A stretch of DNA of 64,000 bases from Escherichia phage 241Ecol014PP. The notes beneath the pieces were generated by a model that was not told where the DNA came from, ran no database searches, and was given only the letters and a program-made list of their open reading frames with translations. Where the stretch lies: the sequence record OR062943.1, one strand, 5' to 3'. The position numbers were made by a program, and so were the translations under genes. Below, in pieces: positions 24,718 through 61,473 of this stretch (position 1 is its first letter; the number at the start of each line of letters is the position of its first letter).

Positions 24718-26094
24718 ATGCCATATTTAGATAAAGTGGTAGATGTTACAGTTAACCTCGGAACCCAGCCTATTGACACTGTAGGTTTCGAAACTCCCCT
24801 GTTCATCGCTATCCACAACAACTTTACTGAGCGAGCTCGCGTATATGCAGAGCTGGATCAGATGGTGGAAGATGGTTTCGCACAAGGCTCTGCAGCGTAT
24901 GAGTTTGCAGCAAAAGCTTTTGGTGGTGTATTCCCTCCACAATACGTTATGATCGGCAGACAGGCCAAAGAAAAGACCACTGTAGATTTTAAAGGTATTG
25001 CTGCCGCAGCTGATACTGATGTCGTAATGACTATTGCAAAAGGTAGCTACAATACCTCTTTGATAGTCCCTATCTCTGGTGGAACAGCTGCAACTCAGAT
25101 TGCAGAATCAATGAAGACTAAAATCGAAGCAGATGATAACTTGGACGATATCACTGTAGAGGCTGCTGATGGTGTTATCACCATCACTGGTGACTGTACT
25201 GTTGGTTACCATACTGGTAACTATACAATCAAAAATATCGCCAATGCTGAAAAACCTTCTACAGTAGTTGATAAGATCAATGCTGAGCGTGACAATTGGT
25301 ACTTCCTGTGCCATGAAGACCACACCGACATTGAAGCATGTGCTAAGTGGGCTCAGGCTAACTACAAGCTGCATGTCTACTCTACTGCAGAAGATGTGAC
25401 TGGTAAAGATAATAACATCGCCACCAAACTGAAAGCTGCACAATATGACAGTGTCGGCATGTACGATCCTCGCGCAGATAAGGACTTCCCGGAGGGTGGT
25501 ATCATAGGTGCTATGGCATCCAACGATCCGTCTTACGGCGACAGCTTGCACTTAAAACAGATGCCAGGTGTGATTGCACCGTCTCTGACTTTAACTCAGC
25601 GTATGGCTATTTGGGAAAACCACGTTAACTTCTACAGAATGATTAACGGTGTTGGCGCTTTCTGGGAAGGTAAGTGTGCTTCAGGTCAGTATGCAGACGC
25701 TATTCGTTTTGCACACTGGATCAAGTTCAGATCTGAAGAATCTATGTTTGGGTACATGCATCGTCGCTCCAACATGGGTTTAAGCATGAAGATGTCTGAT
25801 GATGATCTTCCGGTTATCAAGTCTGTCCTGATGAACAACCCAATCAACACTGGCATTAAGAATGGTGCGATCCTGACAGGTTTTGACGAAGACAACAATG
25901 TGTTCTACGACCCGATCATCACAGTTCCTAAACGTGCAGAGATTCCAACCAATCAGTTGGCTGCTCGTGTTCTGGAAGGTGTGAAAGTAGAACTGGTGTA
26001 TAACAACGCCCTGCACTTCGTTCGTATCCGGATCAACGTCCTTCTGGACAAAGTTGGTTCTAAATCCACCAATGCTGTTGCAATGACTGAATAA
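24718..26094 (+). CDS. major tail protein, sheath-like by size and gene order
   Basis: 458 aa, followed by a 157-aa ORF, chaperone pair and tape measure, the usual sheath-tube-chaperone-TMP order. No motif evidence. Confidence 0.4.
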   Translation: MPYLDKVVDVTVNLGTQPIDTVGFETPLFIAIHNNFTERARVYAELDQMVEDGFAQGSAAYEFAAKAFGGVFPPQYVMIGRQAKEKTTVDFKGIAAAADTDVVMTIAKGSYNTSLIVPISGGTAATQIAESMKTKIEADDNLDDITVEAADGVITITGDCTVGYHTGNYTIKNIANAEKPSTVVDKINAERDNWYFLCHEDHTDIEACAKWAQANYKLHVYSTAEDVTGKDNNIATKLKAAQYDSVGMYDPRADKDFPEGGIIGAMASNDPSYGDSLHLKQMPGVIAPSLTLTQRMAIWENHVNFYRMINGVGAFWEGKCASGQYADAIRFAHWIKFRSEESMFGYMHRRSNMGLSMKMSDDDLPVIKSVLMNNPINTGIKNGAILTGFDEDNNVFYDPIITVPKRAEIPTNQLAARVLEGVKVELVYNNALHFVRIRINVLLDKVGSKSTNAVAMTE

Positions 26095-26104: not shown

Positions 26105-26578
26105 ATGGAAACTCAAATTTTAACTCCTTATGCTTATGATCCTAAAAAGGTCAAACTGTATCTGATGCAGCAGCGTGTCACTGGCTTCGCTGCTGACACC
26201 AAGATCGTTGTTTCAAGAAACGAAGACAACATCTACCCTCACGTTGGTGTGGATGGCGAAATGTCTGCTGCCCTGTCTCGTAACCAATCTGGTGTTATGA
26301 CTGTATCTTTGCAGAACACTTCTGTATGGAACGCTTACCTTTCTGACTGGCAGAAACAGGCATCGATTACTGGCCTGGTATTCTTCCCGGTTCTGCTGGA
26401 AGGTAGCCAGGGCCCTGGTATTTCCACAATTGGTTGGATCCAGAAACAGCCTGACCTGACTTACGGAACCGAAGTAGGTCAGCTGGACTGGGATATCGGT
26501 ATTCTGGATGCATGGCTCAACCGTGATAACATCACTGGTGCTCTTACTGGCCTCGCAGGTCTTGCAGGTATTATCTAA
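26105..26578 (+). CDS. tail tube protein (putative)
   Basis: 157 aa, position only. Confidence 0.4.
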   Translation: METQILTPYAYDPKKVKLYLMQQRVTGFAADTKIVVSRNEDNIYPHVGVDGEMSAALSRNQSGVMTVSLQNTSVWNAYLSDWQKQASITGLVFFPVLLEGSQGPGISTIGWIQKQPDLTYGTEVGQLDWDIGILDAWLNRDNITGALTGLAGLAGII

Positions 26579-26595
26579 GGGCACACTTTAGCATA

Positions 26596-26740: not shown

Positions 26741-27214
26741 ATGGCTATAAACTTTAGACCTACAACAGAGATTGATTTAGCAGGGCACAACTTTGTGATC
26801 ACCCACTGGGGACCGATGAAAGCAATGAAGAACATGCCTAAAATCGGTAAGATTGTGGCTGTCCCGCTAGGTGCTATCGGTGGATCTATTATCTCAGGCG
26901 GTCAGAACATGGCAGAGGTTCTTCCTACTGCTCTGGCTTACCTGTTCCAAGAACTTGATGATAACTCTATCGAAGAGTTATTTAAAATTTTGTTCGAAGA
27001 TATTACCGTAGATGGTGTGGATAAGCTTAACCCGGATGTTGTGTTTGCAGGGCATCTGCTGGAGATGATTAAGCTGGCAGGTAAGGTTCTGGAGGTTAAC
27101 TACGGCTGTTTTTTCACACAAGACGGTTTAGGAAGCCTTCTGGAGATGTTACAGCAGATGGGTATGATTCAGCAGGTGAACAACCTGGATCAGACTCCGG
27201 AAGAGCAGGAATAA
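26741..27214 (+). CDS. tail assembly chaperone (putative)
   Basis: 157 aa, acidic C-terminus, immediately upstream of the tape measure region. Confidence 0.4.
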   Translation: MAINFRPTTEIDLAGHNFVITHWGPMKAMKNMPKIGKIVAVPLGAIGGSIISGGQNMAEVLPTALAYLFQELDDNSIEELFKILFEDITVDGVDKLNPDVVFAGHLLEMIKLAGKVLEVNYGCFFTQDGLGSLLEMLQQMGMIQQVNNLDQTPEEQE

Positions 27215-27225
27215 GCAAGGTTGTT

Positions 27226-27474
27226 GTGAGGGCCAGTGAGTGGGCAGCCAAGAACAGTTCACTCAACTGGTTCGACTTTCTTTGGTGCAGGGTGCTCAAG
27301 AATTTCAAAGGGGAAAATTTTGAATCGCTAAATCTTGCAGATATGGCGTATTTCCTGAAGCTCTGTGAGTATCTTGATATCGAAGAATTCCTAGATACCG
27401 TCCAAAACAGGGAAATGGAGCGGGAGCAGAAGGCTGCCGCAGCTGCTGCGAAAGCTAAGCGCAGGAGAGGATAA
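27226..27474 (+). CDS. second tail chaperone ORF (possible frameshift extension)
   Basis: Lies in the -1 frame relative to 26741-27214 and is open from 27169; no slippery heptamer identified. Confidence 0.25.
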   Translation: MRASEWAAKNSSLNWFDFLWCRVLKNFKGENFESLNLADMAYFLKLCEYLDIEEFLDTVQNREMEREQKAAAAAAKAKRRRG

Positions 27475-27528: not shown

Positions 27529-29865
27529 ATGGCTACAAACAAAATAGTTGCCACAACAGTCAACAAGATTGGCTTTGAGATAGAGAACTCCTCCTACAAA
27601 AAAGCTGTAGAGAAAATTCGCAGTATTGGGAGGGAGTTCAGGAAACTTGGCGAGGATTTTAACTCAGCCAACCCCATGAGTAGATGGCAGGCGGTAGCTG
27701 TTAAAACCCAGCAGACAATGCAGCGGGTTGCCAGACAGCAATCTCAGGCAAATGCTAAACTGCACAGAGAGAGCGTAGCACAGGCCAAGAAAGAGGCTGC
27801 AGTAAGGGCTGCAATAGAACGTAGGGAGAATGCGAGACGTAAACAAGCTGTAGGTAATCTTACCGCTAAAAATCCAGAAATGGCTAGGATGCGTAAGTTC
27901 TACCAGCAGCAAGCTAAAGAGGCCAAAAAGGCTGCCAAATCTGCACCAGTGTCTTACGGCGGTTATAAGCCACCTAAGGCAAGAGTTCTGGCTAATACTA
28001 AAGCTTTCAAATATATCCCCGGTAACCCTAATATGGGTGGTGTGGCTTCCGACCCTAATCTTGTGAAAGCTCAGACAGCTGCTATGAATCGTTATCATAG
28101 ACAGCTAAGAAGGGACGGTAAAGCTGGTATGGATAATAGGCTTATGTCGGATCGTGAGGCAAGAAGAACCCACCTCTACAACTCCGCGATAAGACTTTCT
28201 GCCAAGTATGGTGCCGGATTCCGTGGAAGCTTGCCAGGATACTCAGAGTTAGAGTCCAGGTTTGCTCGCGGGGAGATGAAAAAGTCAACCTTTAACGCCC
28301 ACCTGTCAGCGCTGCAGTCTGGATTTAAAAGTGCCACCAGCCAAACGCTTACACTAGGCGATGCCATGAGAGACTTACGTAGATCTGTTATTAATGCAAC
28401 AGCTGCGTATACAGCTTTTTCTGGATTTGCTGCGGTTAACAGATCCGGTCACATGATGGAGGGGGCAAGTGCTGCTCTTACTGCTGTTACTGGAGATCCA
28501 AACAAAGCCAACAGTGAGGTTGCGTTTGTCCAGCAAGAGGCTATGCGTCTTGGTTTTGATCTCAAATCTGGTCTTCAAGGTTACGCCCAAATGTCGGTAA
28601 ACGCCAAAAACCAGATGACAAACCAGGAAGTGCATGAGCTGTTTTCTGCATACTCCCAGTATGCTGCTGCTTATGGTGCCGATGAGGTAAAATACCAGCG
28701 CGGTATTATGGCAATCCAACAGATGCTCGGGAAGGGACAAGTAATGTCCGAAGAGCTGAAGCAACAACTTGCTGAAGCATTGCCTGGTGCATATGAACCT
28801 TTTATCAAGGCCACCAAAGAGGCTTTTGGTCTTTCTGAACTCTCCATGGATCAGTTCATGGACATGATGAAGAAAGGTGAGGTTAAAACAGCCAAGATCA
28901 TGAAGTATGTGGCTAAGTACATGAACGAGGCATCTGCAGCTGGTTATGAAAGAATGCAGAAGTCTAACGTGCTGGCAGAAAACAGACTGAAAACCTTCAT
29001 CGAACTGACTCGTCAGAAACTGTTCACCCGTTGGTCTGACGAACTAACAGAGTTCTATTATACACTAATCCGCACTGGTGAGACTCTGCAATTTGTGTGG
29101 GATGCCTCTGGTGATTTTGTTAGCGGGTTTGTGAGAGGCCTTAACTGGGTAGTTGGTGAACTAAACAATACTATAGTTAAGATCCGCATGTTTTTCCTTG
29201 AATGGGGGATTAAATGGGGATTCATAACAGCTAAGACGAAGGAATATTCTGAAGAGCTTCATGACACCTTTAGCTATGCTAAATGGGCAGGGTTTGCTGC
29301 TGCCATCATGCTGGTCGTCAACGCCCTAACAAAAGGTTTTGTCATGGCATCTATGCTTGTAAAAACCTTTAAATTCCTTAATTCTCTAAGAGGTGCAGCT
29401 GGAGCAGCAGGTGCAGCTACTGCAGAAGGATCTGGTGGTGGTGGCGCGGCAGGAAAAGGTGGAGGTGGCCTCAAGACACCTGGTGGTAAAGTTGGTCTGC
29501 TTGGCAAGCTGGGCATTATCGGTACAATATTAAGCGCCGGGGAATTATTTAATGACCGTTTCAACCCACTGAGTGAAAGAAATCAGCAACTGGATACTAT
29601 CAGCGATATGATTCGCAAAGATATCATATCGGGAGGTAACGGGTTTGTTAATCCTTTGGACACCTTACCGGGCGGGACTCTTCCGTTGCCGGGTGGCCCT
29701 GGTTTTGCTTCTCAATTAAGAACTATGGAAATGCTACCTTTAGAGATCAGTGATGGGAAAATCACGATTTCAATAGATGAGGGTGAGTTTAACAAAATAT
29801 TTGATGCAAAACTTGAGTGGGAGAACAATAAAGATATCAACTTCATGTCTACCGACCTTTGGTAA
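27529..29865 (+). CDS. tail tape measure protein
   Basis: 778 aa, largely helical, Gly/Ala-rich segment (AGAAGAATAEGSGGGGAAGKGGGG), position after chaperones. Confidence 0.65.
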   Translation: MATNKIVATTVNKIGFEIENSSYKKAVEKIRSIGREFRKLGEDFNSANPMSRWQAVAVKTQQTMQRVARQQSQANAKLHRESVAQAKKEAAVRAAIERRENARRKQAVGNLTAKNPEMARMRKFYQQQAKEAKKAAKSAPVSYGGYKPPKARVLANTKAFKYIPGNPNMGGVASDPNLVKAQTAAMNRYHRQLRRDGKAGMDNRLMSDREARRTHLYNSAIRLSAKYGAGFRGSLPGYSELESRFARGEMKKSTFNAHLSALQSGFKSATSQTLTLGDAMRDLRRSVINATAAYTAFSGFAAVNRSGHMMEGASAALTAVTGDPNKANSEVAFVQQEAMRLGFDLKSGLQGYAQMSVNAKNQMTNQEVHELFSAYSQYAAAYGADEVKYQRGIMAIQQMLGKGQVMSEELKQQLAEALPGAYEPFIKATKEAFGLSELSMDQFMDMMKKGEVKTAKIMKYVAKYMNEASAAGYERMQKSNVLAENRLKTFIELTRQKLFTRWSDELTEFYYTLIRTGETLQFVWDASGDFVSGFVRGLNWVVGELNNTIVKIRMFFLEWGIKWGFITAKTKEYSEELHDTFSYAKWAGFAAAIMLVVNALTKGFVMASMLVKTFKFLNSLRGAAGAAGAATAEGSGGGGAAGKGGGGLKTPGGKVGLLGKLGIIGTILSAGELFNDRFNPLSERNQQLDTISDMIRKDIISGGNGFVNPLDTLPGGTLPLPGGPGFASQLRTMEMLPLEISDGKITISIDEGEFNKIFDAKLEWENNKDINFMSTDLW

Positions 29866-29943: not shown

Positions 29944-30855
29944 ATGGTATCGGAGTGTCCTGGAGAGGTTATGCCAAGCAATATAGTTGATGAAAAAGAC
30001 CTGTACAAGCCTCAAGAGGTTAAATCTCCAAAGGCTGAAAAGGCAGAGCAGCAAACTGAAAGCGATGTAAAGTACACTATGTTTGTCAGCGGTCTTAACT
30101 ATGGCGGTCGCAATACGGAGATGAAGGGTAAAAACTTTACTAACGATCTTGCCATTATCTTCGATCAGGTTGAGAATTACTCTTTCAAACATTCTGTTGA
30201 TAAGACTGGGTTTGCGGTGGAAGATAAATCTACCCTGTCAGACCACGCTGTAATTAAAGATGGTGTATTTTCTTTTACTGGTAGGGTAAATACATCCCCA
30301 CACATAATTTATGAGCAAAACTACATTGATAGGAATACTGACTCTAAAAACCCTGCAGCATCTATGCGACCAGGCGCTGCATTGGAGGCTTTGACTGAGA
30401 TTATCAATAAGCGACAGTTGGTTTCTTTGGTTACCGAGGAGAGACTTCTTGAGAACTACATCATAACCAGTCTTTCTGCCAACAAGTCTGTTGGTGAAGG
30501 CGCTGCAATGGTGTTTGATGTAGAGCTTACAGAGTTCCGCACATTCTACTTGAATAAGGTTGTTAATGCAACTGTATACAGCAATCCTAAGAAAGTAGGC
30601 AAAACCCAGCAAAAAGGTGCTGTCAACGACTGTAAGAATGGCAGTAACGTGGGTAACAAGAGGGACACAGGAGCATTCGCAGACACTGCATCCACAAACG
30701 CTGCAGAGGAGTGGCAGCCATACAAATCTATGATGTGGACAGATGAAAACGGTGTTACCCAATCGGCTGCGGATTGGTATTATCAGGAATATGGAAGACC
30801 TTCTACCATAGTCCCCTCTGAGCAGGGAAACTACAACAAAGTTAACGGGAAATAA
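29944..30855 (+). CDS. tail/baseplate protein (unassigned)
   Basis: ORF-track ORF; start uncertain (ATG 29944 or 29971). Confidence 0.35.
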   Translation: MVSECPGEVMPSNIVDEKDLYKPQEVKSPKAEKAEQQTESDVKYTMFVSGLNYGGRNTEMKGKNFTNDLAIIFDQVENYSFKHSVDKTGFAVEDKSTLSDHAVIKDGVFSFTGRVNTSPHIIYEQNYIDRNTDSKNPAASMRPGAALEALTEIINKRQLVSLVTEERLLENYIITSLSANKSVGEGAAMVFDVELTEFRTFYLNKVVNATVYSNPKKVGKTQQKGAVNDCKNGSNVGNKRDTGAFADTASTNAAEEWQPYKSMMWTDENGVTQSAADWYYQEYGRPSTIVPSEQGNYNKVNGK

Positions 30856-46284: not shown

Positions 46285-46312
46285 AAGCCCCGCTTCGGCG
46301 GGGTTTATTTTT
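46285..46312 (+). terminator. intrinsic terminator
   Basis: GCCCCGC-ttcg-GCGGGG hairpin plus TTTATTTTT. Confidence 0.7.
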
Positions 46313-54042: not shown

Positions 54043-55788
54043 ATGGCGCAAGACATGACAAGCTTCGAGCAGGCGGTAGATCAAGTAATTGTTGATTCTG
54101 AACGTTTGCACTTGATTGTCAACGGTAACGCTGTGGATGAAGTTGTCGTAGAGGATGGGACCACTATCCCTACGGTACGAAAAGCCATGCTTGACACCCT
54201 TTATTTTAAAACGCCACCAATCCCTTGGGCGTATGGTGCATCCACAACAGTTTTTAACCAGTTGTATGAGTTTAAAGGGGATACAGGCACTCAGTGGTGG
54301 TACGCCCCAGCAGCATCAAAATCTAACCCGGTTAGAATGCCAGCAGATCCTTCACAATCTCCAAACTGGAGATTATACACCGACTCTGCAGTAATGGCAA
54401 AATACTACGCAAAACTTAACAGCCCAAGGTTCGAAGGTGACCCGCGAGTACCTACACCTCCAATGGACGATAAGTCAGAGTCCATAGCAAACACAGAGTT
54501 TGTTGTTGACTATGTTGATAGCATATTTAAAGCCATGGAGGGGATGAAAGTTACTGTAGGATCTTTGGTGGTAAAAGGTCTTACAGAACTCGCTAACACT
54601 ATAGTTGGTGGCACCCTTACCTTACATGGACCTGTTAATGGGGCAGATTCTACTGCACGCTTTAGGAATCTAATCCTCACGGCAAATACTTCTACACTTA
54701 CTTTTGCGTGGAGCGATCCTAAGCATGCAGACTGGAGAAGTACAGAGCTGCAACCTCATGAAGTGTCCACCCACAGGGTTATAGCTGACACTATAACTTC
54801 TGGGAAACCAGTGGCTAATAATAACGATGTGCATTTTGATGGTCTGGGTAATAACTTTTTTGACTACGTGTACATTCGTGGTAATGCCATGAAGGCAGCA
54901 ACCGAGCCGACATTGCAGGTCGATGGGACCGCCAGGGTTAAGAACCTTGAGGTGACAGGCACCGTTACAGGGATAACATACTCTGTCGATGGCACCATGA
55001 TCTACCCTAGCTATATTGAAAGCACGGGTGATGCATTGATAAATGGCGATTTGGAGGTTGGCGGATCTGTAGTTATTCGAGGTACAGCCTCTATCCAAAA
55101 CATAGCTCTGAATACCCTAAGAGTCAATGAGCGTGCAACTTTTGAAGGGGAAGGACTTACAGCCAACAAAGGTGTAATTACCGAGCTGACAACCACTACT
55201 TTAACTGCAACAACTGCAAACTCTGAAAACTGCAACGTTACCAGAAACTTGCAGGTAAATGGAGATGTTAGTTTAAACGCAGCAGGGACGGGCACCACCT
55301 ACCTTCACAACCTTGAAATATCCGGCACAGTGACTGGGTGGCTGCCAGACTTCTCTAATGTCAACTTTGTTTGTAATGGCATTAACTCCAGTGGCAAGAT
55401 AACCACCTCTCAAGAAATTGAGGCGGGTAAAACCATTACTGCCCCTACTTTCCACGCAGGAAAGGTAGATTTTGATTTAGAGGAGGTTGACGCGTCCAGT
55501 GGGACATGGACACCTAACGGGCAGGCCAGTATGTATGTTGTCCACGCGAAAGGGGATTTTACAATAGGACAATGGCCTGGGACATCAGCGGAAGATAAAC
55601 CTTATCCATTCACTGCAGTTATCTATGTCATTCAGGATGCTGTAGGTCACAACGTGACTTTGCACGATAAGTATGCTATCCTGTCGGCAACACCTGTTAT
55701 TAACAACAAGGCTAACAGTGTTACCTTGCTGCAATTAACGTATTGTGGTGTTGGTGATATTGTAGACGTAGTAATTGCACAACGTTAA
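54043..55788 (+). CDS. tail fibre or spike protein (581 aa)
   Basis: Thr/Gly/Asn-rich beta-type repeats (TGTVTGITYSVDGT, LNAAGTGTTYLHNLEISGTVTGW). Confidence 0.4.
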   Translation: MAQDMTSFEQAVDQVIVDSERLHLIVNGNAVDEVVVEDGTTIPTVRKAMLDTLYFKTPPIPWAYGASTTVFNQLYEFKGDTGTQWWYAPAASKSNPVRMPADPSQSPNWRLYTDSAVMAKYYAKLNSPRFEGDPRVPTPPMDDKSESIANTEFVVDYVDSIFKAMEGMKVTVGSLVVKGLTELANTIVGGTLTLHGPVNGADSTARFRNLILTANTSTLTFAWSDPKHADWRSTELQPHEVSTHRVIADTITSGKPVANNNDVHFDGLGNNFFDYVYIRGNAMKAATEPTLQVDGTARVKNLEVTGTVTGITYSVDGTMIYPSYIESTGDALINGDLEVGGSVVIRGTASIQNIALNTLRVNERATFEGEGLTANKGVITELTTTTLTATTANSENCNVTRNLQVNGDVSLNAAGTGTTYLHNLEISGTVTGWLPDFSNVNFVCNGINSSGKITTSQEIEAGKTITAPTFHAGKVDFDLEEVDASSGTWTPNGQASMYVVHAKGDFTIGQWPGTSAEDKPYPFTAVIYVIQDAVGHNVTLHDKYAILSATPVINNKANSVTLLQLTYCGVGDIVDVVIAQR

Positions 55789-55795
55789 TATATCT

Positions 55796-55836: not shown

Positions 55837-58800
55837 ATGCTTCCAATCCCTTTGCTAAAACTTGGTCGTCATTTCCTCGATAAGAGGGGTGGAATTAAGG
55901 AACTTGCTGTTCTGTCATACCCAATAGACAACAGTGATGGTACAAGCAACACAGTATCCTATGTAAATAGCTTAGCTATACTTTTTGATGATGGTCAGCT
56001 TAATATTACTGGCTATAATAGGTTCGGAGAGTGTCGGACTGGAGATCTTGATACAATAAACTATCCTAATGAGGCTGCCTGGAACGTTGATCATGTGTGG
56101 AGAGCAGACCGTGCGTTTGTGATCCGAACTTTTGATAACCAGTTTTTCTACATCGGCTGCACTGCAGGGCTTATTGGGTCTGATGCTGCAGGCGGTAATG
56201 ATGTTTGTGTAAGAGAGTGGACACCTCTTCCTGAACAGATCGTTAAAGGGTTGCACCTTGACACCCACCCAGAGCGCCTTATTGAGGTGATGGGTGGTAT
56301 TAACAACACTGTCTGGGTTATTGCAGAGGCAGAAGGCACTGGCATACTTAACCTGTATGGATCTGGTAACAACACCTACGGATCTTTGCATGTAGATAAA
56401 AACCAGCATGCAACCCCTGTAAAGATTGGTGAGACATCGGAAAATCCTGAAACAGGCCCTTGGAAAAACCCAAGCATCAACTGTGAGGTGCATGACAACT
56501 CTGTTATTTTCGGTGGTCCTAGGGGTTTCTGGATTGCTGGATACGACTTTCTAAGAAATAACAGTAGAAACGACCTTGTTTGGCCTCCTGTGCAGATTAC
56601 TCGTAACGATTTGAGAGGCATTCCTGCAGATGAGGAGTGGAAAGGGTTTATGTGCGGTCCTAACGGGGCAATAATTGCCACACAGAGGATGCACACACCT
56701 AATGACCAGCAGCTTGTTAACGTATTCTACGGGCAAGACGTTTGGGGAGATGACACATGGCGTTCCTTAAATATCACCTACACCCATGAGGTGATAATGG
56801 CTCGTGGATACGGCACAAGTGGCATTTTCTTCAATAATGGCACTAAACAGTATCGTGGATTCTCTCGCAACTTGTGTAATGATATTGGTGCACAATCTGC
56901 AAACAATAGCCCTAGGGCTAATTTTATCCACTATCAGGCTCTTGCTACAGCTAAATATGTTGAGCAACGCCTGCCAGTTAGCTGGACAGAGAGTGTTTAT
57001 TTCCAAGGCATCCACAGGGAAGGTTTCTTAGGAACCTTTACTGTTGTTAATGGCAAACTTTGGTGGTCAGGCATCCCAAGGGGAAGTTTTGCAGGCTCTA
57101 ACAACCTGTTTGGCGGCAGACTTAATAGCCAGGGGTTCACAGAGGTTCCTGAGAATTGGTATAAAAATGTCCCGGTAGATAGTTGGGGTGTTGATGATAT
57201 TTTCGACGTTAACGGTGTTAGCAGCGTTAGCAATATTTACATTGGTGACACGGTCAAGATGAAATTGAAGCCTCAGCCAGAGGGGGCTACGTTCATTATT
57301 GACAAGATTGAACTGGTAAATGCTGCAGGCACGGTTGTTACAGATGCAAATTACCAATTCTCCACCAACTGGAACCACGGCGGGGCCAACGAAGTTGTTG
57401 TTACCCAATATAACAGAAATGTTAACAGACGTGGACTGTACTCTGTAAAAATAACCTATCATGACAAACATGGCACAGGCAGAACCCACACAACAAGGAC
57501 TTTGAACTGGAACACTATCGTCCCAGCGTACCCGTCTGATGGTAAATGGCATACTGTCGGTAGAAACAAACAGTTCCATGTTAATGATACTGTATACTTT
57601 GGGCTGAATGCGGCTCAGCCTGCAGTAGAAGGGGATACATCGTATATGGTCAGACTCCACAGAATGGATGCTGGATCAGTAACTTATGATGTTACCCAAG
57701 AGATTTATAATCAGCGACGAAATACCTATGATAACTTGGTGCAGACACAGGCCTTATGGGAGTTCAACCCAAACGGCAGAGGTGGTAAAATGTTGCAGGT
57801 CAATGAACAAAACGGGACATCGTTGACTGTCCATGAACATCCAAATCCTTGGCCTGATCCTGGAAAACCTAACTCTGGTGCTCGTACACTGAAAATTGTT
57901 AGCCATGATGCAGGATATTTCGGAATACGCTGGGAAGCCACAGTAAGATATGCCGACGGGACAACAAACAATATAGGGATCACCCTTGGTGGCACTAGTG
58001 AGGATAACTCACTGAAAATTGCCTACACCCCTAGAGGCATCTCTATTGACAATATGGATGTTGTTCGCAACGGTTACGGCGATGTGAATGTCAAAGTTAC
58101 TCTTGGCGAACATCTTGGTGGGGAAAGGATCATCATGTATGCCTTTGATCATGATCCGCGCACCAATGGGACTTATGCAAATCAGGCATGGAGTTATCTG
58201 ATAAATGCACCTGAGCCGAATACTAAAGAGTTCTACTACGGTATGAAGCGAGATGTGTGCAAGAAAACAGGAACACATGACTGGATTGCTATCTGCGTTA
58301 AAGATGAGCGCACAGCTTGGGATGAGCCTGTTAACAGATGGTTCATAGGTATTCCTACCAGAAGTGATAAGTATGTCGCAGAATATATTGTATGCATGGG
58401 CGGTACCAACCTAAACATGTGTTGGAACGAAGATGTAAACAAATACTCTGATTATGACTATATGAGGGATTACTCTTGTAATTTGTGGTTTAACCAAACT
58501 ACAGGTTACCCTCCGCGTCAGGCAAGGGTAAATCCTGCAATCTTTACAGATACGCAGGTTTTCTTGACAAAACAGGCCAACGAGGTCCAGACCTTCAAGA
58601 ACAAATACGACCCTAATAAGTGGTTCTATAACTGCTATGGGGCATTTTTCTGGGGACCTGGAGAATTACCTGGTGGTGGCTCTTGTTTTGAGGCTGCAAC
58701 TTACGCCAGTGACAGATTTATGGGCCAGGTCAAGAAATACAAGATAATTCCAGGGCCTGAAACTTTAGGCAACGCTGTCGACCCCTATATCATCATGAGT

Positions 58801-61473
58801 GATCTAAGATCGAACATGGATGGAACATCCATATCTATGCAAGTTCCGGTAACAAACGGATACAAGCGTGTTGTGATGATCATTAAGTGCGATCTGATAG
58901 GTAAGCAAGTTCTTGCAGAGAACGGAACTTCCACCCACCTATTTGAGACTGCTCTGCACTATCAGTTTGCTGATTCACCTTTTGCAGGGGATAAGAGAAT
59001 ATCTGACACAGACGCTGTGCGATGCAAGAAATTTATGCTAGGTGGTGGGTGGTGGTGGTATGAATTTGACTTAACAGACAAATTCACCGACACGTCTAAA
59101 GTAGTGACGGGGCTTCGTCTAGACCTTGGCGAAAACATGCACAAAAGTGTTTGTGATGGCACCTACGGTGACCCAACAATCTACTTAAAGTATGTCTCTT
59201 TTGAGCACCCAGAGGATGTTGTTTATGGTCCAAAACTGAGACTGTTTGGCAATTGGATTGCTAAAGACAGGGTAGGTATGGGCAAGAAGGTAAGAGGCTT
59301 CTTAATGGATGCCGGTACAGAGGACATGCTAGTCAATGCAGTGTGGCCTGAATTACCTGGGACTCAGTGGAACAACTCAGCCAAATCTATAAACTGGTTC
59401 AATATCCACAGGGCTATGTGGACAACCAACTGTTACCTGTGGAAAGAGCTGAATGACGGCGCTTTCGGGTTCACAGGCGGCAGAAGAATGGCAATCATTT
59501 GCTGGACAACGTTGCAAAGATGTTATGACCATGACTACGAGATTGGAGGTAGGGCATGGAAAAATATTAGGGATAGAATCATAACCAACTTTGCAGATCC
59601 TAACGGTGGTGGAGCGTATGGCTTCGACTGCAGCAGGCTCATCCATTTGAACGGATCCTCTGCCTACAAGAAAGAAGGTTACTCTGGGTCTATGATAGAA
59701 TGGGGCCTGGTGAAAGATGCTCGCGTGCTGATGGGTCAACAACTTGCTGCTGCAATAGGTCCTAATGCAGTGCAATCTGTTAAACCTGCGTGGTTTGATA
59801 TCCCATTGTGGTCATCCGGTACACCAGGAACTGCTGCAATCAACCCTACCACGGGGGATCTGGAAATCTCTTGGGAGGACTTGAAGCAGGTTGGAGGCTG
59901 GGATAAAACAGGGTATCAGGTCCAGTGGTGGAGGGCTGATGGATCTTTAGCCGCTGATGAGTTTGTTAAGGACAATTTCTACACCATGTCCTCTGCAAAA
60001 GCACAGCAATTATTTGGTCAGGCCACTCCGTCAACGATCACCATGTCTATGTGCTGTAAAGACAACAGGACTGGAGCTTTGGGGCCAAGGGTTGCTAAGG
60101 TTTTCTCAGGTATTAAATGGAATCTCCCTGTTCAAAGTGTTTCATGGAAGCAAATAGGTGATAACAAGCTGCTGGTTACCCCTGCCTGTCAGTTCAACGC
60201 AACTCTTAACGTTGATCCTGCTGTTGCGGCAAACTCAGCTAAAGCTTCTGACTTCTCTGTGTCTAACACTGCTATGGCAGATGTGAGGAAGATTGACACA
60301 CTGAACGCCAGAATTACCTGTAAAAACACTTATGGCACATTCCAAATCATCAACAACTTCACAGATGCTGATTCTAAGGTAGTAAGGACAGCAAGCCAGA
60401 CTCTGAGTTTAGGGACTCTAGCCTATGCGGCCATGATCACCGAACAGTCGGCAACACTCCAAGGAGGCGGTGTAGGCAAGTCCATTGCAACACCTGTGTG
60501 GAAGCCGAATGAGTGGGTTGTGTTTGATTTGACTGTGGACTTCTCCAGTGATAATAACTGGACATGGGTAAGGAATTGTTTGTCACAGTTGATGGGCGGT
60601 CCAAGCTCCATTAGCGATAGTCACGACTCTACTGACCCGAGCGTGTTCCAGGTGGGTAAAACTCACCCAGAGACTGGAGAAACGTTGCCTGACAGGAAGT
60701 ATGCTTTGGTTTGCATCTCTTACGGGAAGGCAGATGTCACCTTCTCAGGGACACACACTTATAACGGAACCTACAACTTCTCAAGGAAGTATAGTCTCAA
60801 AGCAGGGAACATTGTAGACGAGGTTGGTGTGCTGTATAATCCAGGTAACGGCATAGGGATTGTGGGTGGTAAACTGCAGATGCAGGAACCTTCTATTACC
60901 CCTTCCAACGTATCCGGTATTAGAAAGACTTGGGAAAGTAGTAATACCAACATTGCAACAGTGGATGCTGCCACAGGGCTGGTAACATTTAAAGCTACTG
61001 GGAATGTCACCATAAAGTTTGTAGTTACTGATGATGCAGGGCGCAAAACGTCTTCAACATCTTTTACTGTCAAACAGATGGCACCACAGTGGAGAATGTG
61101 GATAGGTACAGCAACAAACGGGGCATACCCTAATCCGGCAGGTACTTCTGGTATGAAGACTTTCTCTACAAGCAAACCGATGGAGTACGGCAGCGGTCCT
61201 AAGGTAGGGCAGATGGTGTACTTTGGTGCGTATATTCCTGAAATTATAGGGCTTCCTAGAAGTCAGCTTCAGTTGCTGTTTGGGGCTGGTGTTGACGATC
61301 TTGCCACTTTCGGGTATAGCGACAACATCGAGGCTGCAAGGAGTTCAGGATGGGTAGGGTTCAGAATGGAGTCTGGAAAGGAAGGCAGGATTCTAGGGAC
61401 AGCCTCTATAGGTGTTATGTTCCCTGGTGACCAGCAGTATCGTCTAGAAGCCTACGCAACCTTTTCTCGTTAA
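55837..61473 (+). CDS. giant virion-associated protein (1878 aa) with Ig-like domain
   Basis: Uninterrupted 5.6-kb ORF; C-terminal segment SNVSGIRKTWESSNTNIATVDAATGLVTFKATGNVTIKFVVTDDAGRKTSSTSFTV resembles a Big_2 domain. Confidence 0.5.
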   Translation: MLPIPLLKLGRHFLDKRGGIKELAVLSYPIDNSDGTSNTVSYVNSLAILFDDGQLNITGYNRFGECRTGDLDTINYPNEAAWNVDHVWRADRAFVIRTFDNQFFYIGCTAGLIGSDAAGGNDVCVREWTPLPEQIVKGLHLDTHPERLIEVMGGINNTVWVIAEAEGTGILNLYGSGNNTYGSLHVDKNQHATPVKIGETSENPETGPWKNPSINCEVHDNSVIFGGPRGFWIAGYDFLRNNSRNDLVWPPVQITRNDLRGIPADEEWKGFMCGPNGAIIATQRMHTPNDQQLVNVFYGQDVWGDDTWRSLNITYTHEVIMARGYGTSGIFFNNGTKQYRGFSRNLCNDIGAQSANNSPRANFIHYQALATAKYVEQRLPVSWTESVYFQGIHREGFLGTFTVVNGKLWWSGIPRGSFAGSNNLFGGRLNSQGFTEVPENWYKNVPVDSWGVDDIFDVNGVSSVSNIYIGDTVKMKLKPQPEGATFIIDKIELVNAAGTVVTDANYQFSTNWNHGGANEVVVTQYNRNVNRRGLYSVKITYHDKHGTGRTHTTRTLNWNTIVPAYPSDGKWHTVGRNKQFHVNDTVYFGLNAAQPAVEGDTSYMVRLHRMDAGSVTYDVTQEIYNQRRNTYDNLVQTQALWEFNPNGRGGKMLQVNEQNGTSLTVHEHPNPWPDPGKPNSGARTLKIVSHDAGYFGIRWEATVRYADGTTNNIGITLGGTSEDNSLKIAYTPRGISIDNMDVVRNGYGDVNVKVTLGEHLGGERIIMYAFDHDPRTNGTYANQAWSYLINAPEPNTKEFYYGMKRDVCKKTGTHDWIAICVKDERTAWDEPVNRWFIGIPTRSDKYVAEYIVCMGGTNLNMCWNEDVNKYSDYDYMRDYSCNLWFNQTTGYPPRQARVNPAIFTDTQVFLTKQANEVQTFKNKYDPNKWFYNCYGAFFWGPGELPGGGSCFEAATYASDRFMGQVKKYKIIPGPETLGNAVDPYIIMSDLRSNMDGTSISMQVPVTNGYKRVVMIIKCDLIGKQVLAENGTSTHLFETALHYQFADSPFAGDKRISDTDAVRCKKFMLGGGWWWYEFDLTDKFTDTSKVVTGLRLDLGENMHKSVCDGTYGDPTIYLKYVSFEHPEDVVYGPKLRLFGNWIAKDRVGMGKKVRGFLMDAGTEDMLVNAVWPELPGTQWNNSAKSINWFNIHRAMWTTNCYLWKELNDGAFGFTGGRRMAIICWTTLQRCYDHDYEIGGRAWKNIRDRIITNFADPNGGGAYGFDCSRLIHLNGSSAYKKEGYSGSMIEWGLVKDARVLMGQQLAAAIGPNAVQSVKPAWFDIPLWSSGTPGTAAINPTTGDLEISWEDLKQVGGWDKTGYQVQWWRADGSLAADEFVKDNFYTMSSAKAQQLFGQATPSTITMSMCCKDNRTGALGPRVAKVFSGIKWNLPVQSVSWKQIGDNKLLVTPACQFNATLNVDPAVAANSAKASDFSVSNTAMADVRKIDTLNARITCKNTYGTFQIINNFTDADSKVVRTASQTLSLGTLAYAAMITEQSATLQGGGVGKSIATPVWKPNEWVVFDLTVDFSSDNNWTWVRNCLSQLMGGPSSISDSHDSTDPSVFQVGKTHPETGETLPDRKYALVCISYGKADVTFSGTHTYNGTYNFSRKYSLKAGNIVDEVGVLYNPGNGIGIVGGKLQMQEPSITPSNVSGIRKTWESSNTNIATVDAATGLVTFKATGNVTIKFVVTDDAGRKTSSTSFTVKQMAPQWRMWIGTATNGAYPNPAGTSGMKTFSTSKPMEYGSGPKVGQMVYFGAYIPEIIGLPRSQLQLLFGAGVDDLATFGYSDNIEAARSSGWVGFRMESGKEGRILGTASIGVMFPGDQQYRLEAYATFSR

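What the first reader, a model, noticed from the sequence alone, without database searches (positions are those of the whole stretch)
24718..61473. Oversized, composite tail module (about 37 kb)
The tail region combines a sheath/tube/chaperone/tape-measure-like block, a baseplate-like block, an S74-chaperone tail fibre, a lambda K- and J-like tip block, two paralogous side fibres with a Tfa, and further spikes. Several independent receptor-binding proteins imply a broad or multi-receptor adsorption apparatus.
Basis: partly seen in the sequence, partly recalled or inferred. Interest (0 to 1): 0.5.

Follow-up and report, generated by a model that had tools for sequence, protein, structure and literature searches.

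The report
rV5-type phage multi-fibre tail module
This 37-kb stretch is the well-known tail, baseplate and multi-fibre gene cluster of an rV5-like (Vequintavirus) E. coli phage; it is ordinary for that group, except that it carries a complete tail-tip gene cassette captured from a non-contractile-tailed phage, whose place in the virion is still unknown.

Summary
Window 24718-61473 is 27 tightly packed + strand ORFs (98% coding). They encode sheath, tube, frameshifted chaperone, tape measure, a phi92-type baseplate and about nine fibre or spike proteins.

It is not new. The DNA is 96-97% identical and collinear with more than 100 sequenced Vequintavirus genomes (rV5, slur16, BASEL Bas53). The multi-fibre "Swiss army knife" adsorption apparatus of this group is already described in the literature, with cryo-EM for the relatives phi92 and phiTE.

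- The "side fibres" are short-tail-fibre paralogues (44% identical).
- The "K-like" protein matches lambda K only in its NlpC/P60 fold. It has no MPN domain and no conserved catalytic histidine.

One added point. The four genes 40871-46278 (Dit-like, minor tail protein, NlpC/P60-fold protein, J-like hub and fibre) form a complete siphovirus tail-tip cassette.
- It is collinear and 31-49% identical with the cassette that follows the tape measure gene in Queuovirinae siphoviruses.
- It is absent from the tail loci fetched for phi92, SSE121 and LTH01.
- It is flanked by terminator-like hairpins.
- Its J-like protein keeps the full hub fold but has lost the hydrophobic N-terminus found in all 41 siphoviral homologues compared.

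Where it sits on the contractile tail is unknown.

The parts
24718..26094 (+). Tail sheath, 458 aa (rV5 gp53)
   Evidence: PHROG 205 'tail sheath' 4.5e-118; Pfam DUF3383. 98% identical to the Bas53 'tail sheath protein'. gp53 is in the rV5 virion MS table.
26105..26578 (+). Tail tube, 157 aa (rV5 gp52)
   Evidence: Pfam KPP10_Orf10 7.2e-9; PHROG 280 2.4e-41. 49% identical to the phi92 gp131 tube protein. In the rV5 MS table. Terminator-like hairpin at 26595-26618.
26741..27214 (+). Tail assembly chaperone, 157 aa, short form
   Evidence: Pfam Phage_TAC_15 2.3e-23; PHROG 3840 5.4e-69.
27100..27474 (+). -1 frame extension of the chaperone. Slippery heptamer T_TTT_TTC at 27109-27115. The ORF is called as 27226-27474 (82 aa). 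The predicted fusion is about 244 aa.
   Evidence: The -1 frame opens at 27100, 9 nt before the only X_XXY_YYZ heptamer in the gene, and runs to 27474. Frameshifting is inferred, not shown.
27529..29865 (+). Tape measure protein, 778 aa
   Evidence: Pfam TMP_3 3.7e-18; PHROG 5255 E=0. Unrelated to the siphovirus TMPs that sit next to the cassette homologues.
29944..30855 (+). Tube initiator, 303 aa (phi92 gp135 homologue)
   Evidence: Pfam Dit_like 2.5e-22. tblastn 26% to phi92 gp135. Role taken from the phi92 cryo-EM.
30868..31248 (+). Baseplate plug, 126 aa (phi92 gp136 homologue)
   Evidence: Pfam Pam3_gp18 2.9e-18. 40% to phi92 gp136.
31248..32252 (+). Myovirus baseplate hub, 334 aa (phi92 gp137 homologue)
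   Evidence: PHROG 196 'baseplate hub' 2.3e-83. 37% to phi92 gp137.
32252..32929 (+). Central spike, 225 aa
   Evidence: Pfam phage spike N-terminal domain PF18352 1.4e-9. 27% to the phi92 spike. The C-terminus ...KGHTHSCPDGETSGPH holds an HxH motif, like the iron-binding apex described for phi92.
32942..33658 (+). Sheath initiator, 238 aa (phi92 gp139 homologue)
   Evidence: 25% to phi92 gp139. PHROG 120 1.1e-20. Pfam Sheath_initiator is recorded for the 92%-identical homologue in L012. My own hmmscan found no Pfam hit.
33668..34336 (+). Small fibre/adaptor protein, 222 aa, with Tail_spike_N anchor domain (phi92 gp140 homologue)
   Evidence: Pfam Tail_spike_N 2.1e-10; PHROG 7760. Residues 8-105 are 38% identical to the N-terminus of the 1266-aa fibre.
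34338..36935 (+). Large tail protein, 865 aa (phi92 gp141 homologue)
   Evidence: PHROG 2871 'tail protein' E=0. 35% identical over its full length to phi92 gp141 and the SSE121 homologue. No Pfam or PDB sequence hit.
36971..40771 (+). Fibre, 1266 aa, with N-terminal Tail_spike_N anchor and C-terminal S74 intramolecular chaperone
   Evidence: Pfam Peptidase_S74 1.6e-16 (res 1145-1196) and Tail_spike_N 1.8e-10. The least conserved large gene against Bas53, at 94%. rV5 gp41 is in the MS table.
40779..40798 (+). Terminator-like hairpin at the upstream edge of the cassette
   Evidence: 8-bp stem with 7 GC pairs, TTCG loop and T-run. Sequence related to the hairpin at 46285. It lies in a 99-nt gap.
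40871..41461 (+). Cassette gene 1: siphovirus-type distal tail protein (Dit-like), 196 aa (rV5 gp40)
   Evidence: PHROG 1302 'distal tail protein' 2.2e-50. 31% identical to the ESCO3 Dit of the same length. Absent from the phi92, SSE121 and LTH01 tail loci.
41463..42014 (+). Cassette gene 2: minor tail protein, 183 aa (rV5 gp39). The mechanical ORF starts at TTG 41448.
   Evidence: PHROG 2048 4.1e-67. 38% to the ESCO3 'minor tail component'. 117 records at >=95% identity (sampled ones all 129-142 kb Vequintavirus, plus one fragment); none between 60 and 95%; 224 records below 60%, sampled ones 29-85 kb. Same pattern in IMG/VR.
42014..42439 (+).
42439..46278 (+). Cassette gene 4: J-like tail-tip hub plus central-fibre protein, 1279 aa (rV5 gp37)
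46285..46306 (+). Terminator-like hairpin at the downstream edge of the cassette, followed by a promoter-like site at 46322-46350
   Evidence: 9-bp stem with 6 GC pairs and TTCG loop; promoter-like site scores 10/12 with an extended TG. It lies in a 105-nt gap.
46384..47874 (+). Baseplate wedge protein, 496 aa (phi92 gp145 homologue)
   Evidence: Pfam Baseplate_J 3.8e-9; PHROG 6 6.8e-45. 32% to phi92 gp145, 60% to SSE121.
47886..48572 (+). Second wedge protein, 228 aa (phi92 gp146 homologue)
   Evidence: PHROG 4056 'baseplate protein' 2.5e-103. 29% to phi92 gp146.
48572..50644 (+). N4 gp65-type receptor-binding protein, 690 aa (rV5 gp34, phi92 gp142 homologue)
   Evidence: Pfam TIM-barrel_NCTSP 3e-80, NCTSP_N 9.2e-13, Calx-beta. 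42% identical over its full length to phi92 gp142. That family is assigned to the NGR glycan receptor (bioRxiv 10.64898/2026.04.02.716166). gp34 is in the rV5 MS table.
50657..51697 (+). Short tail fibre paralogue 1, 346 aa (rV5 gp33)
   Evidence: PHROG 4465 9.1e-172. 44% identical to the paralogue. The rV5 paper reports an HHpred match to T4 gp12.
51712..52296 (+). Tail fibre assembly protein (Tfa), 194 aa
   Evidence: Pfam Caudo_TAP 7.5e-12; PHROG 136 1.7e-36. 35% to lambda Tfa over the C-terminal 84 aa.
52308..52622 (+). Small conserved protein, 104 aa, role unknown
   Evidence: PHROG 5345 (unknown function) 6e-48. 31% to the SSE121 and LTH01 homologues in the same position.
52709..53755 (+). 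Short tail fibre paralogue 2, 348 aa (rV5 gp30)
   Evidence: PHROG 4465 5.4e-166. 23% to phi92 gp147, which is fibre III in the cryo-EM.
53767..54033 (+). Small membrane-protein-like ORF, 88 aa (phi92 gp144 homologue)
   Evidence: PHROG 1322 'membrane protein' 2.7e-32. 37% to phi92 gp144.
54043..55788 (+). Fibre, 581 aa (rV5 gp28)
   Evidence: PHROG 4549 1.4e-250. Solved homologue 9cuy_g, a 'putative tail fiber protein', 1.4e-77 over residues 8-325; 9CUY is cited in the phiTE cryo-EM paper. The same PHROG was detected in W70 virions.
55837..61473 (+). Giant Ig-domain protein, 1878 aa (rV5 gp27)
   Evidence: Pfam Big_2 1.1e-8; PHROG 15684; N-terminal residues 41-197 hit PHROG 11922 'tail protein'. 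N-terminal 184 aa are 30% identical to the SSE121 gene in the same position. MS support in rV5 is weak: three non-tryptic peptides.
61490..61511 (+). Terminator-like hairpin that ends the + strand module
   Evidence: 9-bp stem with 6 GC pairs and a T-run. rV5 annotates bidirectional terminators at the same place.

Best explanation
The region is the tail morphogenesis and adsorption module of a Vequintavirus (rV5-like) myovirus.

It builds a contractile tail: sheath, tube, chaperone (with an inferred -1 frameshift) and tape measure. The tail ends in a phi92-type baseplate: tube initiator, plug, hub, iron-tipped spike, sheath initiator and two wedge proteins.

Several different receptor-binding or glycan-processing proteins are expected to be mounted on the wedge ring at the same time:
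- An N4-gp65-type protein (690 aa) for the NGR surface glycan.
- A branched set anchored through Tail_spike_N domains (222 aa, 865 aa, and a 1266-aa fibre with an S74 chaperone).
- Two short-tail-fibre paralogues folded by a Tfa, for the LPS core.
- A 581-aa fibre.
- A 1878-aa Ig-rich protein.

Binding by the fibres is inferred to rearrange the wedges and trigger contraction, as proposed for phi92 and phiTE.

The module also holds a four-gene tail-tip cassette (Dit-like, minor tail protein, NlpC/P60-fold protein, J-like hub/fibre). An ancestor of the genus appears to have taken it from a Queuovirinae-like siphovirus. Most likely it now makes an extra trimeric fibre-like appendage used for host binding, not a DNA exit. 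Reasons: the phage keeps its own hub and spike, the siphoviral tape measure did not come along, and the J-like protein has lost its hydrophobic N-terminal segment.

Shown here: gene identities, homologies, folds, distribution. Inferred: co-assembly, position of each fibre, receptor assignments, role of the cassette.
For: Identity with the known module:
- 97.1% nt identity over 24718-44718 and 97.3% over 44000-62000 to complete Vequintavirus genomes.
- 112 and 103 records cover at least 80% of each query.
- Gene-for-gene collinearity with Bas53 and rV5.

Gene functions:
- Pfam and PHROG assignments.
- Homologues of every phi92 baseplate component that has been modelled by cryo-EM.
- A solved homologue of the 581-aa fibre, 9cuy_g, E=1.4e-77.

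Receptors in relatives:
- NGR via the gp142/N4-gp65 family.
- Broad lysis host range of the group.

Cassette:
- Same four-gene order directly after the TMP in four siphoviruses.
- 31/38/42/49% identity to ESCO3.
- Absent from the fetched phi92, SSE121 and LTH01 tail loci.
- Bimodal distribution in GenBank phages and in IMG/VR.
- Hub fold confirmed; NlpC/P60 fold confirmed.
- Hydrophobic N-terminus lost.
- Flanking terminator-like hairpins.
- TMP not co-transferred.
- Kept intact in a lineage with 81-92% identical tail proteins (L012).
- An rV5 gp37 tryptic peptide from the hub region is in virions.
Against: - There are no virion or host-range data for this phage itself.
- The rV5 proteome table is shallow: 19 proteins, many non-tryptic matches, and only six from this module. 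It does not contain the three small cassette proteins.
- On K-12 the relatives depend on one glycan plus the LPS core, so simultaneous use of several receptors is not demonstrated.
- No structure of a Vequintavirus sensu stricto is held in the searched library. The two relatives with structures, phi92 and phiTE, are not shown to carry the cassette: it is absent from the phi92 tail locus, and phiTE was not checked. The position and copy number of its products are therefore unknown.
- How a Dit/J complex could dock on a wedge ring has no precedent that I could find.
Confidence: 0.85

Rival explanations
1. The J-like cassette forms the true central tip of the tail. A Dit ring and a J trimer would be stacked on the tail axis below or around the myovirus hub, giving rV5-like phages a central straight fibre like lambda or T5.
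For: The J-like protein keeps the complete hub fold that caps a tube in siphoviruses, and the cassette keeps a Dit-like protein. RefSeq annotates gp37 as 'central tail fiber J'.
Against: The phage has its own tube initiator, plug, hub and HxH spike, all homologous to the axial parts modelled in phi92. The siphoviral TMP partner was not acquired. The hydrophobic N-terminus present in all 41 siphoviral homologues is gone. The BASEL curators read the protein as a lateral fibre.
Confidence: 0.12
2. The cassette is a decaying or non-structural remnant of a recombination event and contributes nothing to the virion.
For: Three of its four products are missing from the rV5 MS table. The NlpC/P60-fold protein lacks a conserved catalytic histidine.
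Against: All four ORFs are intact and tightly coupled, with gaps of 1, -1 and -1 nt. The 183-aa protein is at least 95% identical in 117 records. The cassette is retained in a diverged lineage. A high-scoring gp37 tryptic peptide (XCorr 3.29, DeltCN 0.60) was found in rV5 virions. The J-like gene shows allelic classes, as host-contact proteins do.
Confidence: 0.04
3. The many fibre genes are alternatives, so that individual virions carry only one or a few of them, rather than a co-assembled multivalent apparatus.
For: No direct evidence. It cannot be excluded from sequence alone that some fibres compete for the same docking site: two proteins share the Tail_spike_N anchor.
Against: No invertible segments, shufflon-like or DGR-like repeats are in the module; the only inverted repeat is 27 nt at 74%. 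All genes are on one strand, with terminator-like hairpins but no switch elements. Three fibre sets are seen together on phi92 particles.
Confidence: 0.05
4. The composite layout is an assembly chimera of a myovirus and a siphovirus.
For: None beyond the mixed ancestry of the genes.
Against: The same junctions occur in more than 100 independently sequenced complete genomes and in IMG/VR contigs. GC content is uniform across the cassette, 0.435-0.455.
Confidence: 0.01

Closest known systems
Tail/fibre locus of Escherichia phage rV5 (NC_011041, gp53-gp27) and other Vequintavirus genomes (slur16, Bas53 JohannBauhin, LL12)
   Same: Same genes, order and lengths. 96-97% nt identity, and 94-100% aa identity for each of the 27 products against Bas53.
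   Different: Only allelic differences. The 1266-aa S74 fibre is 94% identical to Bas53, and rV5 gp41 is 1272 aa. The J-like protein belongs to the commoner 1279-aa allele class rather than the 1174-1199-aa class.
phi92 'multivalent adsorption apparatus' (Justusliebigvirus; Schwarzer 2012, which I could not read; cryo-EM in PMC13450770)
   Same: Homologous sheath, tube, TAC, tube initiator, plug, hub, spike, sheath initiator, both wedge proteins, gp140/141/142-type proteins, short tail fibre, Tfa and the small membrane-like protein. Same logic of several fibre sets on one baseplate.
   Different: Identity is only 23-49%. In the tail locus fetched, phi92 has no Dit/minor-tail/DUF6950/J cassette, one short tail fibre instead of two, an endosialidase and a colanidase instead of the 1266-aa and 1878-aa proteins, and a cluster of about 27 kb.
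Tail-tip cassette of Queuovirinae siphoviruses (Nonagvirus vB_EcoS_ESCO3, Seuratvirus CAjan) and relatives (PY54, psageK9, VLCpiS6a, Vibrio phage 1222)
   Same: Four genes in the same order with matching lengths (196/183/141/1279 aa against 196/194/144/1042 aa). 31, 38, 42 and 49% identity. Same hub + FN3 + tip-fibre architecture in the J-like protein.
   Different: In the siphoviruses the cassette directly follows the TMP and must form the tail end. Here it lies 11 kb downstream of an unrelated TMP, between a fibre gene and the wedge genes. The J-like N-terminus is hydrophilic instead of hydrophobic, and the coiled-coil part is longer.
Lambda tail tip genes M-L-K-I-J
   Same: The J-like protein shares the hub fold, Ig_J domains and the Phage_Tail_Tip central-fibre domain with gpJ. 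The 141-aa protein shares the NlpC/P60 fold of the C-terminal half of gpK (lambda K is annotated as a C40 peptidase).
   Different: No significant similarity to M, L, K or I by BLAST or hhalign. No MPN/JAB half, no I homologue, four genes instead of five. The J hub is about 150 residues shorter at the N-terminus, judged from alignment offsets.
phiTE (Certrevirus, Vequintavirinae) baseplate structure (PMC11972413; the paper cites PDB 9CUY)
   Same: The 581-aa fibre matches PDB chain 9cuy_g at E=1.4e-77. The N-termini of the short tail fibres hit PHROG 12846, the family of a tail fibre protein in W70, whose fibres that paper groups with Certrevirus. Fibres attach to the periphery of the wedge.
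   Different: phiTE is flagellotropic and is described with a short fibre, a long fibre and one unmodelled fibre. I did not check the phiTE genome for the cassette. LTH01, whose layout resembles the Septuagintavirus type, lacks it in the fetched locus.
N4 gp65 non-contractile tail sheath / NGR-binding protein family
   Same: The 690-aa protein carries NCTSP_N and the NCTSP TIM barrel (3e-80). It is 42% identical to phi92 gp142, the named example of NGR-binding myovirus RBPs.
   Different: Here it is mounted on a contractile-tail baseplate and has an extra N-terminal Calx-beta domain.

Membership tests
Vequintavirus (rV5-like) tail and adsorption module | Near-identical, collinear DNA with type genomes of the genus | tested here: met
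   97.1% and 97.3% identity over the two halves. 112 and 103 records cover at least 80% of each query. Gene-by-gene collinearity with Bas53 and rV5.
Vequintavirus (rV5-like) tail and adsorption module | Contractile-tail core: sheath, tube, TAC, TMP, tube initiator, plug, hub, spike, sheath initiator, two wedge proteins | tested here: met
   HMM hits and homology to each phi92 component modelled by cryo-EM.
Vequintavirus (rV5-like) tail and adsorption module | Several sets of lateral fibres plus two short-tail-fibre paralogues | tested here: met
   Nine fibre-type ORFs. Paralogues are 44% identical. This matches the BASEL description.
Vequintavirus (rV5-like) tail and adsorption module | The products are virion components | not testable with these tools
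   Literature only. The rV5 MS table lists gp53, 52, 41, 37, 34 and 27, though the paper's text names more. The W70 virion contains homologous families.
Siphovirus tail-tip complex of the Dit + J-like hub type (Queuovirinae type) | Four-gene order Dit / minor tail / DUF6950 / J-like, with homologous products | tested here: met
   Collinear with ESCO3, psageK9, VLCpiS6a and Vibrio 1222. 31-49% identity to ESCO3.
Siphovirus tail-tip complex of the Dit + J-like hub type (Queuovirinae type) | J-like protein with the baseplate-hub fold | tested here: met
Siphovirus tail-tip complex of the Dit + J-like hub type (Queuovirinae type) | Cassette placed directly downstream of its tape measure gene, as the only hub of the tail | tested here: not met
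   Here it starts 11 kb after an unrelated TMP, and a separate myovirus hub and spike are present.
Siphovirus tail-tip complex of the Dit + J-like hub type (Queuovirinae type) | Hydrophobic N-terminal segment of about 45 residues in the J-like protein | tested here: not met
   In 41 of 41 siphoviral or prophage homologues the best 19-mer hydropathy is 1.4-2.4. In the window and the other Vequintavirus copies it is 0.31.
Lambda gpK (MPN/JAB + NlpC/P60 tail assembly protein) | Sequence membership in the NlpC/P60 and MPN families | tested here: not met
   Pfam gives only DUF6950. BLAST, phmmer and hhalign against lambda K are not significant. At 141 aa there is no room for an MPN half.
Lambda gpK (MPN/JAB + NlpC/P60 tail assembly protein) | NlpC/P60 (papain-like) fold with a Cys-His catalytic pair | tested here: inconclusive
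Fibres with an S74 intramolecular chaperone (endosialidase-type) | C-terminal Peptidase_S74 domain | tested here: met
   Pfam 1.6e-16 at residues 1145-1196 of 1266. The C-terminal 171 aa are 48% identical to the ESCO3 'endosialidase chaperone' protein. Autoproteolysis was not tested.
N4 gp65-type NGR-binding proteins | NCTSP_N plus NCTSP TIM-barrel domains and homology to phi92 gp142 | tested here: met
   Pfam 3e-80 and 9.2e-13. 42% identity over residues 1-684 to phi92 gp142. The receptor assignment comes from the literature; binding was not tested.
Programmed -1 frameshift in tail assembly chaperone genes (G/GT type) | Slippery X_XXY_YYZ heptamer where an overlapping -1 ORF opens, located between the tube and TMP genes | tested here: met
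   T_TTT_TTC at 27109-27115. The -1 frame is open from 27100 to 27474. The frameshift product itself is not testable here.

The most novel reading that the evidence does not exclude
Vequintavirus particles may carry a complete siphovirus-type tail-tip complex on their contractile-tail baseplate. It would consist of a Dit-like ring or adaptor, a minor tail protein and a trimeric J-like hub with a central-fibre stalk. It would have been captured once from a Queuovirinae-like siphovirus and turned into a pure receptor-binding appendage by losing its tape-measure partner and its hydrophobic N-terminal segment. That would be a tail-end module of one tail type reused as a side organ of another. It could also account for one of the still unassigned fibre densities in this phage group.
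Probability: 0.4. Interest if true: 0.55.

Novelty: already known. Interest (0 to 1): 0.27.

Why it matters
It re-finds the multi-fibre tail of rV5-like phages, one of the most often isolated groups of E. coli phages and one already considered for therapy because of its host range.

The useful residue is narrower. [quoted passage not shown] Recognising gp40-gp37 as one captured siphovirus tip unit gives a concrete hypothesis for fitting densities. It also suggests a natural module for host-range engineering, because the J-like gene is one of the allelically variable ones. Finally, it is an example of how tail parts move between tail types.

Tried and rejected
- BLASTP of the cassette and hub-set proteins against lambda M, L, K, I, J, Stf and Tfa gave real matches only for J and Tfa.
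- hhalign of small alignments (A1-A3) against lambda M, L and K was not significant. The K alignment did land on the catalytic-Cys motif, at E=0.069.
- Profile searches of the three small cassette proteins against PDB sequences gave nothing significant. The best were a weak MepS hit (E=0.65) and a Dit hit (E=1.2).
- Pfam at E<=10 gave no family for the Dit-like, 183-aa, 865-aa, sheath-initiator or short-tail-fibre proteins.
- The search for homologous proteins with the J-like N-terminus returned only about 100%-identical sequences, which are useless for an alignment. I repeated it with the VLCpiS6a Tal protein to obtain diversity.
- The DUF6950 search returned only 8 homologues, but the model was still confident.
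- I checked whether the equal length (778 aa) of the window TMP and the VLCpiS6a TMP meant co-transfer. The two proteins are unrelated.
- I looked for invertible or DGR-like repeats that could make the fibres alternatives. None were found.
- I looked for Rfam group I introns in the interrupted terminase gene. None reached threshold.
- Schwarzer et al. 2012 (PMC3457257) is not held in the library.
- I found no paper in the library that links Vequintavirus with a J-like or siphovirus tip module.
- I did not check whole genomes of phi92, SSE121 or LTH01 for the cassette outside the fetched loci.


Full report
**1. What the window is**

Megablast of 24718-44718 and of 44000-62000 against GenBank phages finds complete genomes of genus Vequintavirus at 96-97% identity over the full length. 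Examples are rV5_ev147, phiWec191, slur16, BASEL Bas53 JohannBauhin and rV5 itself. 112 and 103 records cover at least 80% of each query. The annotations of Bas53 (MZ501083) and rV5 (NC_011041) are collinear gene for gene with the window's + strand ORFs. All 27 products are 94-100% identical to Bas53. Upstream context agrees: portal, capsid, neck genes, an interrupted terminase gene and a tRNA cluster. So the window comes from an rV5-like E. coli myovirus, and the finding covers rV5 gp53 to gp27.

**2. Check of the observation**

The stated ends are exact ORF ends. There are 27 ORFs, 97.9% of the region is coding, and the products total 11,963 aa. A terminator-like hairpin at 61490-61511 closes the + strand block.

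HMM annotation (Pfam; PHROGs) gives the following.
- Tail core: sheath, tube, chaperone (Phage_TAC_15), TMP.
- Hub set: tube initiator (Dit_like), plug (Pam3_gp18), hub (PHROG 196), spike, sheath initiator.
- First fibre group: a 222-aa Tail_spike_N protein, an 865-aa tail protein, and a 1266-aa fibre with Tail_spike_N at the N-terminus and Peptidase_S74 at the C-terminus.
- Cassette: a four-gene block that ends in a 1279-aa J-like protein (Ig_J, Ig_J_second, Phage_Tail_Tip).
- Wedge set: two wedge proteins (Baseplate_J, PHROG 4056).
- Remaining fibres: a 690-aa NCTSP/N4-gp65-type protein; two fibres of 346 and 348 aa with a Caudo_TAP Tfa and a 104-aa ORF between them; an 88-aa membrane-like ORF; a 581-aa fibre; and a 1878-aa Big_2 protein.

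The two 346/348-aa fibres are 44% identical (E=1e-96). The rV5 paper reported 42.3% and an HHpred match to T4 gp12.

All elements in the finding are therefore real. Three details need correcting:
- The baseplate genes form two blocks separated by 12.7 kb of fibre genes.
- The 'side fibres' are what the field calls short tail fibres.
- The 'K-like' label needs qualifying (section 5).

**3. What is already known**

- The rV5 paper (PMC3606486) singled out gp30, 33, 37, 41 and 43 as fibre-like.
[quoted passage not shown] - Cryo-EM of phi92 (PMC13450770) models tube initiator gp135, plug gp136, hub gp137, an iron-tipped spike, sheath initiator gp139, wedges gp145/146 and fibre III gp147. It infers gp143 as fibre I.
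- tblastn shows a homologue in the window for each of these baseplate parts at 23-49% identity.
- phiTE, a Certrevirus, also has a solved baseplate, with fibres attached to the wedge periphery. The window's 581-aa fibre matches PDB chain 9cuy_g at 1.4e-77; 9CUY is cited in that paper.
- Receptors in relatives: LL12 needs LPS outer-core glucose I. The gp142/N4-gp65 family is assigned to the NGR glycan. The window's 690-aa protein is 42% identical to phi92 gp142 over its full length.

**4. The J block is a whole siphovirus tail-tip cassette**

Outside Vequintavirus, the best tblastn matches of the J-like protein are tail-tip proteins of 45-60-kb siphoviruses.
- Nonagvirus ESCO3: 85% coverage, 45% identity.
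- Pseudomonas psageK9 'host specificity protein J': 84% coverage, 29% identity.
- Klebsiella VLCpiS6a 'baseplate hub protein Tal': residues 49-532, 43.5% identity.

In all four siphoviruses examined, the tape measure gene is followed by the same four genes: distal tail protein (about 196 aa), tail protein (about 194 aa), a 133-152-aa protein, and the J-like protein. The window's 40871-46278 has the same order and lengths (196, 183, 141 and 1279 aa). Identity to ESCO3 is 31, 38, 42 and 49%.

A presence/absence table shows the four genes are missing from the fetched tail loci of phi92, SSE121 (Seunavirus) and LTH01, while every other core tail gene is shared.

The 183-aa protein has a bimodal distribution in GenBank phages.
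- 117 records are at 95% identity or more. The sampled ones are 129-142-kb Vequintavirus genomes, plus one 1.4-kb fragment.
- No record lies between 60 and 95%.
- 224 records are below 60%. The sampled ones are 29-85 kb and include Seuratvirus CAjan at 40% and PY54 at 29%.

IMG/VR gives the same picture: three contigs at 99% and 77 contigs at 40% or less, none of the latter longer than 81 kb.

Other features of the cassette:
- It lies in the two largest intergenic gaps of the fibre region, 99 and 105 nt.
- It sits between two related GC-rich TTCG-loop hairpins, at 40779-40798 and 46285-46306. A promoter-like site follows the second.
- Its GC content does not differ from the flanks.
- A diverged relative hidden in an E. 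coli assembly (L012, tail proteins 81-92% identical) keeps the cassette. There the DUF6950 and J-like proteins are the most diverged, at 61% and 73%.

My inference is a single, old capture by an ancestor of the genus.

**5. Folds**

*The J-like protein.* I modelled residues 1-760 with a 44-sequence alignment. Mean pLDDT is 72, and about 85 over residues 65-430.
- Foldseek's best matches are lambda gpJ (4e-36), DT57C and T5 pb3 (about 1e-30 to 1e-32), and the T1, JBD30 and Chi tail tips.

The protein thus has the complete hub of a non-contractile tail, followed by two FN3-like domains, a long coiled coil, the Phage_Tail_Tip domain and a C-terminal part with 11-residue GxFRG repeats.

**6. What differs from the siphoviral original**

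- The phage has its own axial set: tube initiator, plug, hub, and a spike with an HxH motif.
- The siphoviral TMPs are unrelated to the window's TMP, so the hub's usual partner was not acquired.
- All 41 siphoviral or prophage homologues in alignment A6 begin with a hydrophobic stretch of about 45 residues. Their mean hydropathy is 0.7-1.7 and their best 19-mer scores 1.4-2.4.
- The Vequintavirus copies (window, P0010, P0080, L012) have a hydrophilic segment of the same length. Its mean hydropathy is -0.27 and its best 19-mer scores 0.31.

I read these as signs that the unit no longer works at the end of a tube. This is inference.

An rV5 virion peptide, GYSETDFPSVFVPEWIEK (XCorr 3.29, DeltCN 0.60), maps to residue 325 of the window protein, inside the hub part. 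So at least the J-like protein is in particles. The three small proteins are not in that table, which is shallow: 19 proteins, many of them non-tryptic matches.

**7. Mechanism proposed**

*Shown here:* the gene content of a contractile tail with a phi92-type baseplate and about nine fibre-type proteins.

*From the literature on relatives:*
- Several fibre sets are co-assembled on the wedges.
- The NGR glycan and the LPS outer core serve as receptors on K-12.
- Host range is broad.
- Fibre and wedge rearrangement triggers contraction.

*Inferred by me:*
- The 222-aa and 1266-aa proteins share a Tail_spike_N anchor (38% identity over about 100 aa). They therefore dock on a common partner, as in other branched tailspike systems; that comparison rests on my own knowledge.
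- The cassette gives an extra trimeric appendage whose variable C-terminal half contacts a host structure. Allele classes of the J-like protein are visible: 59 records at 95% or more, 55 at 80-90%, and 2 at 60-80%.

*Rivals:* an axial position, a relic, alternative rather than co-assembled fibres, and an assembly chimera. I rate them 0.12, 0.04, 0.05 and 0.01, for the reasons given in the rival entries.

**8. Novelty and score**

The finding as stated is already known. The module is 97% identical to more than 100 sequenced genomes, and its multi-fibre nature is textbook for the group. 'Oversized' holds only against other genera: about 27 kb for the phi92 cluster and about 23 kb and 19 kb for the main clusters of SSE121 and LTH01, which have further fibre genes upstream.

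The cassette reading may be under-described. GenBank labels gp37 variously as 'central tail fiber J', 'tip attachment protein J', 'host specificity protein J' or 'lateral tail fiber protein with fibronectin type III domain'. I found no paper in the held library that treats gp40-gp37 as a captured siphovirus tip unit. That library is incomplete, and Schwarzer 2012 could not be read. Interest is therefore low for the finding itself, with a moderate side lead.

Noticed in passing
window 14516-16946: The terminase large-subunit gene is interrupted differently from rV5. The window lacks rV5's roughly 979-nt segment that holds the HNH endonuclease gp66. Instead it has a 582-nt insertion (15158-15739) with a 196-aa ORF (15160-15750) carrying a CxxC...DHDHxTGxxRGLLCxxCN motif typical of Endonuclease VII/HNH homing endonucleases. 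Rfam finds no group I intron at gathering threshold.
   Followed up: partly
window 27100-27474: A likely programmed -1 frameshift in the tail assembly chaperone gene. The only X_XXY_YYZ heptamer (T_TTT_TTC, 27109-27115) lies 9 nt after the point where the -1 frame opens. The predicted fusion is about 244 aa. GenBank relatives annotate two separate ORFs.
   Followed up: partly
GenBank records MG065646, MG065647, MG065655 and others (hits H22, H24, H28): Eighteen records named 'Campylobacter phage' with host Campylobacter jejuni are 96-97% identical to this E. coli-phage module. They are probably coliphages carried in Campylobacter phage stocks, or mislabelled records.
   Followed up: no
L012 (GCA_002973135.1, contig JZQG01000004, 54305-73738): A 73.7-kb contig in an E. 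coli genome assembly is a diverged Vequintavirus-like phage. Its tail proteins are 81-92% identical, its DUF6950 protein only 61%, and its J-like allele is 1199 aa at 73%. Nothing at this distance turned up in the GenBank phage collection for the 183-aa protein.
   Followed up: partly
window 45723-45836: Three tandem 33-nt (11-aa) repeats lie in the C-terminal part of the J-like gene. They encode GxFRG-type units (GTFRGDVYANNGSFRGTIDATGGTFRG), probably a short beta-helical stalk before the C-terminal domain.
   Followed up: no
rV5 paper PMC3606486, text versus Additional file 5: The text lists gp30, 32, 33, 36, 42, 43, 45 and 49 among the proteins detected by proteomics. In the parts of the deposited MS table that I read (parts 1, 3 and 4 of 4; 19 proteins in total by its own summary), the only products of this module are gp53, 52, 41, 37, 34 and 27. 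Several entries are non-structural proteins supported by non-tryptic peptides.
   Followed up: partly
window 32942-33658: My Pfam scan found no family for the 238-aa sheath-initiator homologue, even at E<=10. The precomputed annotation of its 92%-identical homologue in L012 lists PF10934 Sheath_initiator. This is probably a version or filter difference.
   Followed up: no
window 12126-12974: Rfam finds four tRNA genes on the + strand at gathering threshold. rV5 annotates six in the corresponding cluster.
   Followed up: no
window 26595-26626, 40781-40808, 46288-46315: Three intergenic terminator-like hairpins share a common sequence (C-rich arm, TTCGG loop region, G-rich arm, T-run). This looks like a recurring terminator type of the phage. 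Two of the three bracket the siphovirus-derived cassette.
   Followed up: partly
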